Positions 28,992 through 32,388 of a stretch of DNA of 64,000 bases are shown piece by piece. The notes below the pieces were generated by a model. It saw only the letters and a program-made list of their open reading frames with translations, did no database searches and was not told the DNA's origin. A program made the translations under genes and the position numbers. Source of the DNA: Alphaproteobacteria bacterium (lineage in GTDB: Bacteria > Pseudomonadota > Alphaproteobacteria > CALKHQ01); NCBI GenBank assembly GCA_965227515.1, contig CBDDFZ010000001.1:896001-960000 (forward strand), read 5' to 3'. Numbering within the stretch: the first letter of the stretch is position 1; each line of letters starts with the position of its first letter.

Positions 28992-30277
28992 CCGACACCC
29001 GCATCACTGCCGTCACCGGCCGCCGGGTGTGGGATTCGCGCGGGCGCCCGACCGTCGAGGCCGAGATCGCGCTGGCGAGCGGCGTCACCGGCCGGGCGAT
29101 CGCACCCGCCGGGGCCTCCACCGGGCGCCACGAGGCGGTCGACAAGCGCGACGGGGGCACGGCGTTCGGCGGGCTCGACGTCGCAGGCGCGCTGGACGCA
29201 CTTACCGTCGAACTGGCGCCGGCCCTGATCGGCCGGAATGCGGCGGACCAGGCCGGCATCGACAAGGTGCTGAGCGAGACCGATGGCACGCCTGATCTGG
29301 CCCGTTGCGGCGGCAACGCGGTGATCGCGTGCTCGATGGCCACCGCCCATGCCGCGGCCGCCGCCGCCGGGCTGCCGTTGTGGCGTTGGCTGGCCGCCAA
29401 CGCGCCGGTCACCGACATGCCGATCCCGGAGATCCAGGTCTTCGGCGGCGGCGCGCACGCCAGCCGGCGGGTTGACATGCAGGACTTTATGGTGGTCGCG
29501 GTCGGCGCCGCCCACATCGCCCAGGCATTCGACTGGACCGCCGAGGTCTATCGCGCTGCCGGCGGGCTGATGGCCGAGGCCGGCAAGCTCGCCGGGGTGG
29601 CCGACGAGGGCGGCTGGTGGCCGCAATTCGAGGGCAACGAGGACGCACTGGATTTCCTGGTCCGCGCCATCGAGCGCGCGGGCCTGCGTCCCGGCGAGGA
29701 TGTCGCCATCGCCCTCGACATCGCCGCCACCCAGTTGCTGGACGGCGAGCATTACCGGCTGGCGGCGGAGGATCGGCGCCTGGACGGCGACGAATGGCGC
29801 GAACTGCTGCTCGGCTGGTGCCGGCGCTACCCCATCGTGTCCATCGAGGACCCGTGCGCGGAGGACGACTTCGACGGCATGGCGGCGTTCGTGGCCCAGG
29901 TGCCGGCCGGCATCATCACGGTCGGCGACGACCATCTGGCGACCGCGCCGGAACGGATCGCCGATGCCGCCGGCGCGCGTTCCTGCACCGCGGCCCTGAT
30001 CAAGCCCAACCAGGCCGGCACGCTGACCCGCGCGCACCACGCCCTGAACGACGCCCGCGCCCATGGCTGGGCCACCATCGTGTCGGCCCGCTCCGGCGAG
30101 ACCGAGGATGTGACCGTGACCCATCTCGCCGTTGGCTGGGGCGCCGATCAGCTCAAGGTCGGCTCCTTCACCCGTTCCGAACGGATGGCGAAGTGGAACG
30201 AGTGCCTGCGCATCGACGAGGCCCTCGGTGGCGGCCTGCCGCTCCGGCGGCCCCGGGCGTGGGTTGGAGGATCGTAG
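28988..30277 (+). CDS. eno: Enolase-like protein (variant phosphopyruvate hydratase)
   Basis: 'DSRGRPTVE', 'GASTG', 'DEGG', 'SIEDP', 'VGDD', 'LIKPNQAG', 'SARSGETED'; ATGA overlap with the kinase. Confidence 0.8.
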   Translation: MTDTRITAVTGRRVWDSRGRPTVEAEIALASGVTGRAIAPAGASTGRHEAVDKRDGGTAFGGLDVAGALDALTVELAPALIGRNAADQAGIDKVLSETDGTPDLARCGGNAVIACSMATAHAAAAAAGLPLWRWLAANAPVTDMPIPEIQVFGGGAHASRRVDMQDFMVVAVGAAHIAQAFDWTAEVYRAAGGLMAEAGKLAGVADEGGWWPQFEGNEDALDFLVRAIERAGLRPGEDVAIALDIAATQLLDGEHYRLAAEDRRLDGDEWRELLLGWCRRYPIVSIEDPCAEDDFDGMAAFVAQVPAGIITVGDDHLATAPERIADAAGARSCTAALIKPNQAGTLTRAHHALNDARAHGWATIVSARSGETEDVTVTHLAVGWGADQLKVGSFTRSERMAKWNECLRIDEALGGGLPLRRPRAWVGGS

Positions 30278-30327
30278 CCCGGGTGAAACGAAGTGGAACC
30301 CGGGTTTCGCTGCGCTCCACCCAGGCT
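30274..30327. repeat. GTAG-type REP element interrupted by the IS110 element
   Basis: gtagcccgggtg...cacccaggct; the closing 'ac' lies at 31757-31758 beyond the IS. Confidence 0.75.
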
Positions 30328-30359
30328 TCTGTAACGGGCCATTGTTGGTCAATCCCTTT

Positions 30360-30530
30360 TTCGTCGTCCCGGCGCCTGGGTCATGCTTCTGTACGGGGTC
30401 GGCGCACGGCCGCCACCAAGATGGATATGCGAGGATCGGTCGGTCCAATCTACGGAAGCGTGCTCTCGTGCGAGGCGACATCCTGGATGGCGGCCTGACC
30501 TGATCCATCGTCCCGGCGCGGGACGGCGCT
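30360..30530 (-). ncRNA. Putative bridge RNA / seekRNA of the IS110 element
   Basis: Segments matching target (30482-30490, 30450-30454) and donor (30418-30424, 30386-30393) inside stem-flanked loops; RNA ends are estimated. Confidence 0.7.
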
Positions 30531-30600
30531 TGACGGGCCGGTGTCTGCGCCCGCCGAAGCTCGTGTGCTGGTTCTCCCTATGCGGCGGTCGTCTTTGCCA

Positions 30601-31644
30601 TTAGGCCGCTGCCATCGCCGGGCGCACCGGTCCGGCATGGTTGAACGCGGTGCCGTCAACCCACATCCGGTGCATGATCACGGCGAGCCGGCGCGCCAGC
30701 GCGACCTTCGCCTTCCTCATGCCCGCACGCCTGGCCAGCTTCATCGCCCAGCTCTTCAGCCAGCCGCCCTCGATCGGCCGGGTCAGAACCACGTGTGCCG
30801 CCTCATAGAGGGCCGAGCGCACATCGGCGTCCCCTACCTTCGATATCCGCCCCATCACCTCGCTCTCGCCCGACTGGCGCTTGGTCGGCGTCAGGCCGAA
30901 GTGCGCACCCACCAGGCGCGACGAGGCAAACCGCCCGGGGTCGTCCACTCCCGACAAGTAGGTCAGTCCGACAATGCTCCCCACGCCCGGCACCGTCATC
31001 AGCAGGCGAGCGCGATCGTCGGCCTGCGCCGCCGCCCGGACCTGCCGGTCCAGCGCCGTGAACGATAGCAACAGGCCATCGCGTGCCGACAGCAGCGCCC
31101 CCGCCACCGCCTCCAGTACCGGATGCCCCGCCACAAGCTCCGAAATACGTGTCGAAAAGCTGCGCCTGGTGGTGTGCCCTACCTTCAGCCCGAAGTTCCG
31201 CAGCTGACCACGAAGGTGCATCTCAAGATCGTGCAGCTTCGCGCGGAGCTGGTCGCGACCCTTCAAAAGGGCCCGCATCTCCTGGGCCGCCAAAGACTTG
31301 CAGTGAACCGGCCGAAACCAGCCCACACGCATCAGCTGAGCAATCCCGCGTGCGTCCGAGCGGTCCGACTTCACCGGCATCGTCGAAAGGGCCCGCGCAA
31401 CATGACGCGTCTCCAGCAACTCAACCGAAAGACCGCCCTGCGCGCACTCCCGCACAAGCCATTGCGACAACGGCCCCGCCTCAAGACCAATCCGCTCAAC
31501 CGAAATCCCCAAAGACCCAAACCACAACAACAAACCCGCCGGCGTGCTCGCAATACGAGCCTCGCAGACAATCCCGCCCGCGCCGTCAACAACGCATACC
31601 GATGACCATTCCAAAGAAACGTCAATCCCGGCATAGTAGTTCAT
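30601..31644 (-). CDS. IS110-family transposase (RNA-guided recombinase)
   Basis: RuvC-like D-E-D-D ('GIDVS', 'GLEAG', 'KSDRSDA'), 'TVPGVG', 'GLTP..RQSG..GRISK.G', 'VALARRL'. Confidence 0.95.
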   Translation of the reverse strand: MNYYAGIDVSLEWSSVCVVDGAGGIVCEARIASTPAGLLLWFGSLGISVERIGLEAGPLSQWLVRECAQGGLSVELLETRHVARALSTMPVKSDRSDARGIAQLMRVGWFRPVHCKSLAAQEMRALLKGRDQLRAKLHDLEMHLRGQLRNFGLKVGHTTRRSFSTRISELVAGHPVLEAVAGALLSARDGLLLSFTALDRQVRAAAQADDRARLLMTVPGVGSIVGLTYLSGVDDPGRFASSRLVGAHFGLTPTKRQSGESEVMGRISKVGDADVRSALYEAAHVVLTRPIEGGWLKSWAMKLARRAGMRKAKVALARRLAVIMHRMWVDGTAFNHAGPVRPAMAAA

Positions 31645-31773
31645 GGTCGTCTCTCCTCGATGTCTTGGAGCGGCAAACCCGACTCCGTGTATGACACCGA
31701 CATCTTGAGGGACGACCACTCATGCACGCCACCAAACAAGGGCCGTTAGCCCATCTACAACGTCCGGTGCGCC

Positions 31774-32205
31774 TCAACCCGCCGCGATGTACTGCTCCAG
31801 TGCGTCGCGTTCGTGCTGCAACTCGCCCAGGCGGTGCTTCACCACGTCGCCGATGCTGATTATGCCGACCATGCGGTCGTTGCGCATCACCGGCAGGTGG
31901 CGGATGCGGTGGTCGGTCATCAACTGCATCAGCTTGTCGAGCGTGTCGTCCGGCGTGCAGGTGATGACGTTCGCGGTCATGTAGTCCCTGACCGGCCCGT
32001 CCAGGCAGGTGGTGCCGTGGGTGGCCACCGCGTGCACGATGTCGCGCTCCGACAGGATGCCGTCGACCGCGCCCGCGCGGTCCGAGACGACAATGACCCC
32101 GATATGCTCGCGCTGGAGGGTCGCTGCCGCGTCGGCCATCTTGGAGCCCGGCGTGGCGTGAACGACCCTGTTGCCCTTGTCCTTCAGGATGGCTGCAACA
32201 TGCAT
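31774..32205 (-). CDS. CBS-domain protein
   Basis: 'GILSERD', 'IRHLPV', 'GIISIGDVVK'; GGAGG RBS. Confidence 0.9.
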   Translation of the reverse strand: MHVAAILKDKGNRVVHATPGSKMADAAATLQREHIGVIVVSDRAGAVDGILSERDIVHAVATHGTTCLDGPVRDYMTANVITCTPDDTLDKLMQLMTDHRIRHLPVMRNDRMVGIISIGDVVKHRLGELQHERDALEQYIAAG

Positions 32206-32388
32206 GGCGTCCTCCGCCTTTTCTTCTGATTTGGGGGACAAGAATGCTACCGCAGTCGCGCGGAATGTCGACCGGCGATTTGGGGGTGAATTGCTGACCT
32301 AAGTTCGCATTGCCTGATACCGACTGCGCCAAGAAACAGCTCAAATTCTTCGGCGTCATCAACACAGTTGAGCGCTTCCAACCACTAT

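What the first reader, a model, noticed from the sequence alone, without database searches (positions are those of the whole stretch)
30360..30530. Candidate bridge RNA downstream of the IS110 transposase, with readable target and donor guides
Seen: removing the element gives target ccacccagg-CT-acaa, and joining its ends gives donor gcccat-CT-tctgta. Read on the transposase (minus) strand, the downstream non-coding end contains four segments in order. CCAUCCAGG (30490-30482) matches the left target at 8/9. (C)GUAG (30454-30450) is complementary to CTAC of the right target. CCAUCUU (30424-30418) is identical to the left donor plus core plus the next base. UACAGAAG (30393-30386) is the exact complement of the core plus right donor. 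The target pair is enclosed by an imperfect stem (30433-30446 with 30492-30506) with an inner hairpin (ctcgtgcgag); the donor pair surrounds a ggtcggcg..cgccacc hairpin. Known: IS110/IS1111 recombinases use a non-coding bridge/seek RNA with target- and donor-binding loops in LTG-RTG-LDG-RDG order, encoded downstream in IS1111-type elements. Inference: this is an intact, potentially reprogrammable RNA-guided recombinase from an alphaproteobacterial lineage. The LTG does not reproduce the CT core (it continues AU), unlike the donor loop.
Basis: partly seen in the sequence, partly recalled or inferred. Interest (0 to 1): 0.9.

Follow-up and report, generated by a model that had tools for sequence, protein, structure and literature searches.

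The report
Bridge RNA of an IS1111-type element
This is a jumping gene of a known kind (IS1111 group of the IS110 family) that carries, behind its transposase gene, a folded guide RNA whose short loops spell out both the repeat it inserts into and its own ends; it is a well-supported but ordinary new member of a system described in 2024.

Summary
Window 30328-31756 is a 1429-bp IS110-family element with its transposase on the minus strand. It has 20 intact copies in this genome, all inserted at CCAYCCRGG-CT|AC in a REP-like repeat. In 5000 dinucleotide shuffles, none reproduced the three longer segments together.

- Two alleles of the first guide (..CCAGG in 7 copies..CCGGG in 13) track the target variant: 7 of 7 and 11 of 13, Fisher p=4.6e-4.
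- The window copy is a recombinant whose target follows its RNA end.
- In homologues with 43-68% identical transposases the scaffold is conserved, while the guides change to match each element's own flanks and ends.
- Of 24 consensus base pairs, 17 show compensatory changes.

That architecture is already described for IS1111 elements.

No RNA run was available, so expression is untested. Verdict: a new member of a known kind. Interest is about 0.3, not 0.9.

The parts
30328..31756 (-). Whole insertion sequence (1429 bp), counted with one copy of the CT core (31755-31756). The other core copy, 30326-30327, belongs to the target.
   Evidence: blastn found 20 full-length copies at 90.9-100% identity plus one broken copy. 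Flanks are identical in kind in 20 of 20 copies.
30601..31644 (-). Transposase gene, 347 aa, IS110-family RNA-guided (DEDD) recombinase carrying the GLTPTKRQSG motif.
   Evidence: Pfam PF01548 and PF02371. NCBIfam NF033542 at 238 bits against a cut-off of 140. IS621 transposase 8wt6 at E 2.9e-10, with the GLTP..SG stretch aligned. The ORF is open in 20 of 20 copies.
30366..30524 (-). Core bridge RNA (159 nt), from the 5' strand of closing stem P1 to its 3' strand.
   Evidence: RNAalifold on extended alignments and on A2. Covariance model R1 scores 135.7 bits, E 4.3e-34, at C1:926352-926529 = window 30352-30529. The window sequence was among those the model was built from.
30512..30524 (-). P1 5' strand, GUCCCGCGCCGGG. 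It can alternatively form a local hairpin with 30510-30515.
   Evidence: In the P1 helices (columns 7-9 with 193-195 and 14-17 with 186-189), 7 of 7 pairs have changes on both sides.
30366..30380 (-). P1 3' strand, CCCAGGCGCCGGGAC.
30492..30506 (-). P2 5' strand: outer stem of the target-binding arm.
   Evidence: Helix 4: 8 pairs, 5 with changes on both sides, 92.3% of cells paired.
30482..30490 (-). It pairs with the transposase-sense strand of the flank CCTGGGTGG. Position 7 is A in 7 copies and G in 13.
   Evidence: Homologues were compared.
30460..30479 (-). P3 inner hairpin of the target-binding arm.
   Evidence: A hairpin of 4 or more pairs forms in 20 of 21 aligned sequences, although the sequence is not conserved.
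30450..30454 (-).
   Evidence: AC follows the core in 20 of 20 copies and G follows in 15 of 20. G follows in 81 of 114 empty sites. In the window copy itself the G is an A, so only GUAG pairs.
30433..30446 (-). P2 3' strand.
   Evidence: helix 4
30418..30424 (-). Left donor guide, CCAUCUU, single-stranded in the three-way junction.
   Evidence: It is identical to the end ..CCAT + CT + T of the joined ends. It covaries with the end in homologues: L049 GGCAU with end CGGCAT, and L089 CGCCA with end ACGCCAT.
30397..30417 (-). P4 hairpin between the two donor guides.
   Evidence: Helix 5: 7 pairs, 5 with changes on both sides, 91.8% paired. The U-to-C change between the A and B alleles turns a G-U pair into G-C.
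30386..30393 (-). Right donor guide, UACAGAAG.
   Evidence: It is an exact copy of the last 6 nt of the element plus the core. Five variants in homologues (ACAGAAG, AGAGAAG, AGCGAAG, ACGGAAG, ACCGAAG) each equal their own element's end.
30347..30352 (-). TTGACC, candidate -35 box of a promoter completed only when the ends are joined. After 17 nt comes GA + core AG + AT = GAAGAT.
   Evidence: TTGAC lies 24-26 nt from the end in 19 of 20 homologue loci. No sigma-70-like promoter is found inside the integrated element (0 found). The -10 reading is my own inspection.
30332..30349 (.). Sub-terminal inverted repeat, arm at the RNA end.
   Evidence: Pair I6: 18 nt, 78% complementary to 31731-31748.
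31731..31748 (.). Sub-terminal inverted repeat, arm at the transposase-upstream end.
   Evidence: I6
30276..30327 (+). REP-like palindromic repeat that is the target, ending in ccacccagg-CT. Its AC continues at 31757-31758.
   Evidence: The first 48 bases of the query recur about 30 times in the genome. There are 114 empty CAYCCRGG-CT-AC sites.

Best explanation
Window 30328-31756 is an active IS1111-group member of the IS110 family.

Behind the transposase gene, on the same (minus) strand, it encodes a bridge RNA of about 160 nt (30524-30366). A closing stem P1 opens into a three-way junction.
- One arm (P2, an internal loop, then P3) presents two target guides. CCAUCCAGG pairs with one strand of the REP-like target left of the CT core. 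CGUAG pairs with the other strand across the core and the next three bases.
- The junction strands on either side of hairpin P4 present two donor guides, CCAUCUU and UACAGAAG. These read the joined ends of the excised circular element.

The transposase, loaded with this RNA, would bring the circle and a REP copy together and exchange strands at CT.

Shown here by comparison: the boundaries, the guide matches, their covariation with targets and ends, and the covarying stems.

Inferred from the family's published experiments: that the interval is transcribed, that the RNA binds the protein, and that a circle is the donor.

Inferred from sequence only: that transcription comes from a promoter assembled at the circle junction (TTGACC, 17 nt, GAAGAT).
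For: Boundaries and activity
- 20 of 20 copies are inserted at ..GGCT|..|AC.
- All 20 ORFs are open: 18 of 347 aa and 2 of 345 aa. Two sets of three copies have 0 differences.

Family assignment
- Pfam PF01548 plus PF02371 and NCBIfam NF033542 'IS110 family RNA-guided transposase'.
- The non-coding end is 273 nt downstream against 112 nt upstream.
- There is a sub-terminal inverted repeat.

Covariation within the genome
- The 7 copies with guide ..CCAGG all lie in ..CCAGG targets. Of the 13 copies with ..CCGGG, 11 lie in ..CCGGG targets. Fisher p=4.6e-4.
- Given 45 A-type sites among 134 sites in all, 7 of 7 by chance has p=4.8e-4.
- Copies with the G guide occupy 9 of 27 perfectly matching CATCCGGG sites. 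They occupy only 2 of 62 CACCCGGG sites, which need a U:G pair (p=2.6e-4).
- The window copy carries B alleles at 28 diagnostic sites and then A alleles at 28. The switch lies between window 30685 and 30649, and the copy sits in an A-type target.
- Two copies with partly A-type transposase genes but B-type RNA ends sit in G-type targets.

Covariation across homologues
- The first guide shares an exact run of 6 or more with its own flank in 10 of 14 distinct elements, against 5 of 182 mismatched pairings.
- The second guide has a run of 4 or more, core included, in 9 of 13 own pairings against 12 of 156 mismatched ones.
- Four further elements found with the model, and not used to build it, match their own flanks by 7, 6 and 9 of 10 bases, and by the 5 bases available before a contig end. 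In one genome two variants, AAUUUCU and AAUUGCU, match flanks AGAAATT and AGCAAT.

Structure
- 24 consensus pairs, 17 with changes on both sides.
- 89.7% of cells are paired, against 74.3% in shuffles (0 of 500 reach it) and 42.8-50.1% when partners are slid.
- G-U pairs are frequent on this strand (for example U-G in 14 of 21 sequences at columns 36/112). On the other strand they would be A-C mismatches.

Agreement with the literature
- Bridge RNA in the downstream end, and donor guides in a multi-loop, in IS1111 elements (Durrant et al., PMC11208160, passages read).
- The top-strand match lies 5' of the bottom-strand match in IS1111 seekRNAs, and ISPa11 targets a REP (Siddiquee et al., PMC11187229, sections 8 and 9 read).
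Against: - There is no evidence of transcription or protein binding.
- The minimum-energy fold of the 273-nt end alone does not give the model. It pairs the first guide into a stem and is unremarkable in energy (z -1.49; 14 of 200 shuffles fold as well).
- The first guide does not pair with the C of the core here (AU instead of CU), although the IS621 description includes the core in all four pairings.
- The window copy's own pairings are imperfect: a U:G at guide position 4, and only GUAG for the second guide.
- 2 of 13 G-guide copies sit in A-type targets.
- Among the 14 distinct homologue pairings, four do not reach an exact run of 6 with their own flank: the window copy itself (run of 5, 8 of 9 overall), L033 (both guides discordant), L041 (first guide only) and L056 (7 of 10).
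- The A and B alleles also differ in the last roughly 16 codons of the transposase and in 9 nt upstream of the RNA. The within-genome association therefore cannot be pinned on the single guide base alone.
- Rfam 15 has no matching family.
Confidence: 0.88

Rival explanations
1. Only the target-binding arm is functional, as a short seekRNA. The two donor matches would be by-products of end-related sequence, and the ends would be recognised by the protein through the sub-terminal inverted repeats.
For: For ISEc11, an 82-nt RNA carrying the two target matches supported movement of a mini-element better than the 154-nt form (42% against about 15%; Siddiquee et al., section 10). IS1111 elements have long sub-terminal repeats that could serve protein recognition. 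The plus-strand stretch around 30384-30398 resembles the element end over about 16 nt with one indel, which could be a duplication.
Against: The right donor guide occurs in five variants among homologues, and each equals its own element's end. The left donor guide changes with the other end in L049 and L089. P1 and P4, which frame only the donor guides, carry compensatory changes: 7 of 7 P1 pairs in the two covarying helices and 5 of 7 P4 pairs.
Confidence: 0.08
2. The guides act as DNA, not RNA. Sub-terminal single-stranded DNA of the element would pair with the target, as in IS200/IS605 elements.
For: The sequence alone cannot tell an RNA from a DNA strand of the same sense. No RNA run was available.
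Against: The protein belongs to the family whose members co-purify with RNA from this same non-coding end, and that nucleic acid is RNase-sensitive (ISEc11, ISPa11, ISKpn4; section 8). It matches NF033542 'RNA-guided transposase' and the IS621 transposase, solved in complex with its bridge RNA (abstract of PMC11208158 in the listing). It has no HUH/TnpA-type domain.
Confidence: 0.02
3. The four matches are coincidences in a GC-rich non-coding end.
For: The two target matches taken singly are common in shuffles: 471 and 530 of 5000.
Against: All three longer matches together occur in 0 of 5000 shuffles. Covariation within the genome and across homologues argues the same way.
Confidence: 0.01

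Closest known systems
IS1111-group bridge RNAs predicted by Durrant et al. 2024 (Nature 630:984; PMC11208160), e.g. ISPa11, ISAzs32, ISCARN28
   Same: [quoted passage not shown]
   Different: This element's transposase has no relative above 68% identity among those I found: 67.8% in plasmids and 68% in genome contigs. Its 90% cluster holds only this genome's copies plus one short contig. The first guide stops short of the core. I could not see the paper's figures or supplementary tables, so I cannot say whether a close relative's RNA is already drawn there.
seekRNAs of ISEc11, ISPa11 and ISKpn4 (Siddiquee et al. 2024, Nat Commun 15:5235; PMC11187229)
   Same: The downstream non-coding region. 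Two short target matches, with the top-strand match 5' of the bottom-strand match when read in the transposase direction. A REP target, as for ISPa11. The GL-P----S(T)G motif and a 330-350 aa transposase. No internal promoter, with a promoter formed at the circle junction (sections 6, 8, 9 read).
   Different: Those RNAs were shown experimentally. This one is inferred. That paper describes target matches only. Here donor matches with covariation are also seen.
IS621 bridge RNA (IS110 group), solved in complex (8wt6 and others)
   Same: The same CT core. The same rule that the 5' guide of a loop pairs with one strand over 8-9 nt and the 3' guide with the other over 4-7 nt. The order is target guides, then donor guides.
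   Different: In IS621 the RNA is upstream of the transposase, and the CT strand is the coding strand. Here the RNA is downstream, and the transposase and RNA lie on the strand complementary to CT. IS621's donor guides sit in an internal loop. Here they sit in a three-way junction. Protein similarity is confined to the C-terminal domain (residues 210-335, E 2.9e-10).
ISPpu9/Ssr9 of Pseudomonas putida KT2440 (Pares-Guillen et al. 2025, PMC12288879; abstract read)
   Same: An IS110-family element inserted in REP sequences, with a small RNA gene downstream of the transposase.
   Different: [quoted passage not shown] Here the model found no solo RNA copy: 21 hits, made up of 20 elements and the broken copy.

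Membership tests
IS1111 group of the IS110 family | DEDD (RuvC-like) N-terminal domain plus PF02371 C-terminal domain | tested here: met
   PF01548 at E 1.6e-12 and PF02371 at E 2.3e-20. NF033542 at 238.4 bits against a cut-off of 140.
IS1111 group of the IS110 family | GL-P----S(T)G motif and a transposase of 330-350 aa (as stated in Siddiquee et al., section 6) | tested here: met
   The translation reads FGLTPTKRQSGES, and the protein is 347 aa. The stretch aligns with GLTPRRYESGSS of IS621.
IS1111 group of the IS110 family | Longer non-coding region downstream of the transposase gene | tested here: met
   273 nt (30328-30600) downstream against 112 nt (31645-31756) upstream.
IS1111 group of the IS110 family | Sub-terminal inverted repeats of 7-17 bp | tested here: met
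   30332-30349 with 31731-31748: 18 nt, 78% complementary. The core TAACGGGCC / TAACGGCCC matches at 8 of 9. Homologues have 10 of 10: GTAACGGGCC, or TAATCGGCCG in the second group (my reading).
IS1111 group of the IS110 family | Site-specific insertion without a target duplication beyond the crossover bases | tested here: met
   20 of 20 copies lie at CCAYCCRGG-CT|AC, and only CT is present at both junctions.
IS1111 group of the IS110 family | Circular intermediate with a junction promoter | not testable with these tools
   There is only a sequence candidate: TTGACC, 17 nt, then GAAGAT across the joined ends. TTGAC is conserved in 19 of 20 homologue loci. No internal promoter was found.
Bridge RNA / seekRNA | Structured non-coding RNA in the long non-coding end | tested here: met
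   24 pairs, 17 compensatory. 89.7% paired against 74.3% in shuffles, 0 of 500. No Rfam family matched.
Bridge RNA / seekRNA | Target loop whose 5' guide (8-9 nt) and 3' guide (4-7 nt) pair with opposite strands of the target | tested here: met
   The 5' guide is 9 nt: 8 of 9 matches in the window copy, with the odd position a U:G. The 3' guide is 5 nt: 4 in the window copy and 5 in 15 of 20 copies.
Bridge RNA / seekRNA | Guides covary with the target | tested here: met
   Within the genome, Fisher p=4.6e-4. Across homologues, 10 of 14 own pairings against 5 of 182 mismatched pairings. Four independent elements also match.
Bridge RNA / seekRNA | Core dinucleotide included in all four pairings (IS621 description) | tested here: inconclusive
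   The second target guide and both donor guides include the core. The first guide reads AU where CU is expected. In homologues it reads CU in L036, L038, L043, L050, L052 and L055, but not in L032, L034 or L053.
Bridge RNA / seekRNA | Donor guides matching the joined ends | tested here: met
   7 of 7 and 8 of 8 matches in the window. There are five concordant variants of the right donor guide among homologues.
Bridge RNA / seekRNA | RNA is made, binds the transposase and is required for recombination | not testable with these tools
   No RNA holder was listed for this sequence.

The most novel reading that the evidence does not exclude
Two bridge-RNA alleles that differ by one guide base (A or G at 30484) coexist in one genome and divide the REP variants between them. 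A natural recombinant, the window copy, shows that target choice follows the RNA end and not most of the transposase gene. Occupancy falls about tenfold when a guide U must pair with G (9 of 27 against 2 of 62). The element therefore retargets by single guide mutations in the wild. Each copy would preferentially use the RNA it encodes itself, because trans use of the other allele's RNA should have blurred the pattern: both alleles have identical donor guides.
Probability: 0.5. Interest if true: 0.45.

Novelty: new member of a known kind. Interest (0 to 1): 0.3.

Why it matters
It adds a well-documented alphaproteobacterial IS1111-type element whose target, donor, core and all four guides can be read directly, with 20 natural insertion events and 114 unused sites in one genome. 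That makes it a convenient natural data set on how guide complementarity, wobble pairs and mismatches shape target choice, and a candidate for bench work on the less-studied multi-loop (IS1111) architecture. Only IS110-group proteins (IS621, ISCro4) appeared among solved structures at E up to 0.001. It does not change what is known about the mechanism.

Tried and rejected
- Rfam 15 scan of 29800-32300 at E up to 10 gave only a chance snoRNA hit in the enolase gene and nothing in the element.
- Single-sequence folding of the 273-nt end did not recover the model and was not significant. I rely on comparative structure instead.
- Public sequencing runs: no RNA holder was listed. Read laying was therefore not used, and expression remains untested.
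- I looked for a switch between the local hairpin GUCCCG..CGGGAC (30524-30510) and the closing stem P1. In the window the 3' tail repeats CCGGGAC, but homologues do not keep this. In L047 and L054 the hairpin is not conserved while GGAC is. I dropped the idea.
- I looked for solo RNA copies, as with ssr9 in P. putida, and found none.
- The three other genomes of the same order have no match to the model, at completeness 96-98%. No orthologous empty site was sought there.
- In the homologue sets I left out L037, L051, L057, L058 and L059 (partial protein matches). I left out L042 because it had no anchor motif.
- L031, L047 and L054 have no recognisable downstream end and were left out of the first-guide test. 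Near-duplicates (subB, L035, L039, L040, L045, L046, L048, L052) were left out of the 14-element control.
- L083 and L085, found with the model, had no recognisable end within 120 nt and were not scored.
- Supplementary files of the two key papers were closed. They may already list this element's relatives or their RNA models.
- I did not run a literature search aimed at within-genome guide polymorphism, so I make no claim that it is unpublished.

Full report
**What is there**

The interval lies in the downstream non-coding end of an insertion sequence at window 30328-31756.

- The transposase ORF (30601-31644, minus strand, 347 aa) carries PF01548 and PF02371. It matches NCBIfam NF033542, 'IS110 family RNA-guided transposase', at 238 bits against a cut-off of 140. 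Its C-terminal domain aligns with the IS621 transposase of PDB 8wt6, including the GLTP....SG stretch.
- The element sits between an enolase-family gene and a CBS-domain gene.
- The same genome (5.5 Mb, 2 contigs) holds 20 full copies at 90.9-100% identity and one internally deleted copy.
- In all 20, the sequence on the window-left side ends in ..CCRGG-CT and the sequence on the other side starts with AC. Only CT is present at both junctions.
- All 20 ORFs are open, and two sets of three copies have no difference at all, so the element has moved recently.

**The target**

The target is a REP-like imperfect palindrome of about 50 bp (30276-30327 in the window).

- The genome has 114 unoccupied sites of the form CAYCCRGG-CT-AC: 60 CACCCGGG, 33 CACCCAGG, 18 CATCCGGG and 3 CATCCAGG.
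- G follows AC in 81 of the 114 empty sites and in 15 of the 20 occupied ones.

**The observation**

All four segments are at the stated coordinates. On the minus strand they are:

- CCAUCCAGG (30490-30482)
- CGUAG (30454-30450)
- CCAUCUU (30424-30418)
- UACAGAAG (30393-30386)

I ran 5000 dinucleotide-preserving shuffles of the 261-nt non-coding stretch. The 8-of-9 first guide arose 471 times, CGTAG 530 times, the 7-mer 31 times and the 8-mer 4 times. Two of the three longer ones arose together once, and all three never.

**Evidence within the genome**

Aligning the RNA ends of the 20 copies shows two alleles.

- Seven copies read CCAUCCAGG.
- Thirteen read CCAUCCGGG.
- The alleles also differ at one loop base of P3, two bases of P4, a 9-nt indel nearer the stop codon, and the last codons of the transposase.

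The seven A-guide copies all sit in ..CCAGG targets. Eleven of the thirteen G-guide copies sit in ..CCGGG targets, and two sit in ..CCAGG, which would be an rG:dT pair (Fisher p=4.6e-4). Given 45 A-type sites among 134 sites in all, seven of seven has p=4.8e-4.

Guide position 4 is U in both alleles, while targets have C or T there. G-guide copies occupy 9 of 27 sites with T (perfect match) but 2 of 62 with C (U:G), p=2.6e-4.

At the 56 positions that are fixed between the two lineages, the window copy has 28 B alleles followed by 28 A alleles. The switch lies between window 30685 and 30649, and the copy lies in an A-type target. Two copies with partly A-type transposase genes but B-type RNA ends lie in G-type targets. 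Target choice therefore follows the RNA end of the element.

There is a caveat. The last roughly 16 codons travel with the RNA end, and gene conversion after insertion cannot be excluded. Conversion would, however, weaken the association rather than create it.

**Evidence from other genomes**

A scan of genome contigs with the transposase gave 29 loci with 43-69% identical protein segments (43-68% among the 24 loci used). Most are from alphaproteobacterial assemblies, and several Hyphomicrobiales are named. In plasmids the best match is 67.8%, from Methylocystis. The 90% protein cluster holds only this genome's copies and one short contig.

Alignment of the downstream ends shows a conserved scaffold with variable blocks exactly at the guide positions. 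Each block matches its own element's flank.

- L032: AAUCCGCC with flank GGCGGATT.
- L034: CAUGCGGG with CCCGCATG.
- L038: CAUGUCCGCU with AG+CGGACATG.
- L043: CAAACCUUCU with AG+AAGGTTTG.
- L050: GGAAUGCCU with AG+GCATTCC.
- L053: CAAUGGGUCC with GGACCCATTG.

In a control with 14 distinct elements, an exact run of 6 or more between the first guide and the flank occurs in 10 of 14 own pairings and 5 of 182 mismatched pairings. The latter involve elements with related targets.

The four own pairings that fall short are:

- the window copy (5, broken by the U:G position)
- L033 (5, at a different place in the guide window)
- L041 (4)
- L056 (3; 7 of 10 by position)

For the second guide, runs of 4 or more including the core occur in 9 of 13 own pairings and 12 of 156 mismatched pairings. 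L038 (CACUUAG) and L041 (CCGAUAG) match 7 of 7.

The donor guides also change with the ends.

- The right donor guide occurs as ACAGAAG, AGAGAAG, AGCGAAG, ACGGAAG and ACCGAAG. Each time it is identical to the last five bases of its own element plus the core.
- The same 7-mer recurs at the end in 20 of 23 loci examined.
- The left donor guide follows the other end in L049 and L089.

**Structure**

In the window it pairs 30524-30512 with 30380-30366.

On the 21-sequence MAFFT alignment A2 the consensus has 24 pairs in P1, P2 and P4, and 17 of them have changes on both sides. Pair counting gives 89.7% of cells paired. Shuffles give 74.3% (0 of 500 reach the observed value on any of the five measures), and slid partners give 42.8-50.1%.

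The inner hairpin P3 is not alignable, but a hairpin of at least 4 pairs forms in 20 of 21 sequences.

The RNA is thus a three-way junction.

- P1 closes it.
- The P2-loop-P3 arm carries the two target guides.
- The donor guides lie single-stranded on either side of P4.

Frequent G-U pairs place the structure on the transposase strand.

A covariance model built from A2 gave these results:

- 21 hits in the own genome: the 20 copies and the broken one, with no solo RNA.
- None in the 3 other genomes of the order.
- Hits in 5 of 150 other genomes sampled across the class.

Four of the newly found elements have recognisable ends, and their first guides match their own flanks. Two variants in one genome are among them: AAUUUCU with flank AGAAATT, and AAUUGCU with AGCAAT.

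**Expression signals (inference)**

- No sigma-70-like promoter is found inside the integrated element.
- TTGACC at 30352-30347 lies 25 nt from the end. After 17 nt come the last two bases GA, the core AG and the first bases AT of the other end, giving GAAGAT only when the ends are joined.
- TTGAC is kept at 24-26 nt from the end in 19 of 20 homologue loci.
- This agrees with the statement for ISEc11 that the only promoter is the one formed in the circle (section 8).
- The upstream end folds so that the ribosome-binding site and start codon are paired (-49.1 kcal/mol, z -2.83; repeat I21).

**Comparison with what is known**

Durrant et al. 2024 (PMC11208160; passages read) state four relevant points.

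- IS1111-group elements have long downstream ends and long sub-terminal inverted repeats.
- Covariance models predict a bridge RNA in 93.0% of them.
- That RNA lies in the downstream end.
- Donor-binding nucleotides often lie in a multi-loop.

Siddiquee et al. 2024 (PMC11187229; outline and sections 6, 8, 9, 10, 13 read) add further points.

- RNAs from this end co-purify with three IS1111-family transposases.
- The top-strand match precedes the bottom-strand match, the reverse of the IS110 type.
- ISPa11 targets a REP.
- Related elements are naturally redirected by changes in the guide blocks.

The present element meets every sequence-level criterion of the group. These are the domains, the GL-P----SG motif, 347 aa, the downstream non-coding end, a sub-terminal repeat (18 nt at 78%) and site-specific insertion.

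Relative to IS621, the geometry is the same only if the window + strand is taken as the top strand. The transposase and RNA then lie on the bottom strand, which is the published 'reversed order'.

The one departure from the IS621 description is that the first guide here does not cover the C of the core. Among homologues some do and some do not.

**Verdict**

Transcription, protein binding and activity of the RNA remain inferred from the family.

It is a new member of a known kind. What goes slightly beyond the expected is the natural single-base guide polymorphism, with matching target partition and a recombinant copy, inside one genome.

Noticed in passing
window 30273-30285 (minus strand): The other arm of the same REP-like palindrome carries an unoccupied target of the G type (CACCCGGG-CT-ACG), read on the opposite strand and next to the occupied one. 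Each repeat therefore offers two sites in opposite orientation.
   Followed up: partly
G000:C1:998355-999179 (loci L021, L022): A broken copy of the element. Positions 121-710 (window + orientation) are deleted, which removes the target-binding arm and the 3' half of the transposase gene. It still sits in a CACCCAGG-CT site, and the covariance model gives only a partial hit there (55.3 bits).
   Followed up: partly
window 30649-30685: The window copy is a clean recombinant between the two lineages of the element: 28 B-type and then 28 A-type diagnostic sites. This points to recombination or gene conversion among the 20 copies. C1_1655176 and C2_1238468 are also mosaics.
   Followed up: yes
G000:C1:694776-696204 (locus L020): One copy is only about 91% identical to the others (102-162 differences). 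It has the A-type guide and sits in the rare CATCCAGG site that matches that guide perfectly, right after an empty CACCCAGG-CT-AC site.
   Followed up: partly
window 31740-31752 (minus strand) and 31644-31718: At the transposase-upstream end there is a terminator-like hairpin, GGGCUAACGGCCC, followed by a U-rich run. There is also a 12-nt stem (92%) that pairs the ribosome-binding site with an upstream segment. Both are conserved in sequence in homologues, and both would silence read-through from the neighbouring gene.
   Followed up: partly
window 30528-30560 (minus strand): Between the stop codon and the bridge RNA lies a further hairpin (GCUUCGGCGGGC..GCCCGUCAAGC) with compensatory differences in the closest homologues (L032-L034). 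Its role is unknown. It could be part of a longer precursor or a processing signal.
   Followed up: no
loci L082 and L091 (handle G059, contig 6): Another alphaproteobacterial genome has at least two variants of a related bridge RNA. Their first guides differ at one base (U or G), and their flanks differ correspondingly (A or C). This is a second case of within-genome guide/target covariation.
   Followed up: partly
handles G001-G003: The order to which the genome belongs is represented by only four species genomes. The three others (96-98% complete) have no match to the RNA model, so the element was probably acquired by this lineage alone and then expanded.
   Followed up: no
locus L031, about 2460-2480: In this homologue the last roughly 30 nt of the element (TTGAC box, inverted repeat, end) are missing. 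The sequence after ..AAAGGGAT is CCTGATTA, which resembles the target predicted from its first guide (AGAUCAGG). It may be a terminal deletion that left the flank in place.
   Followed up: no
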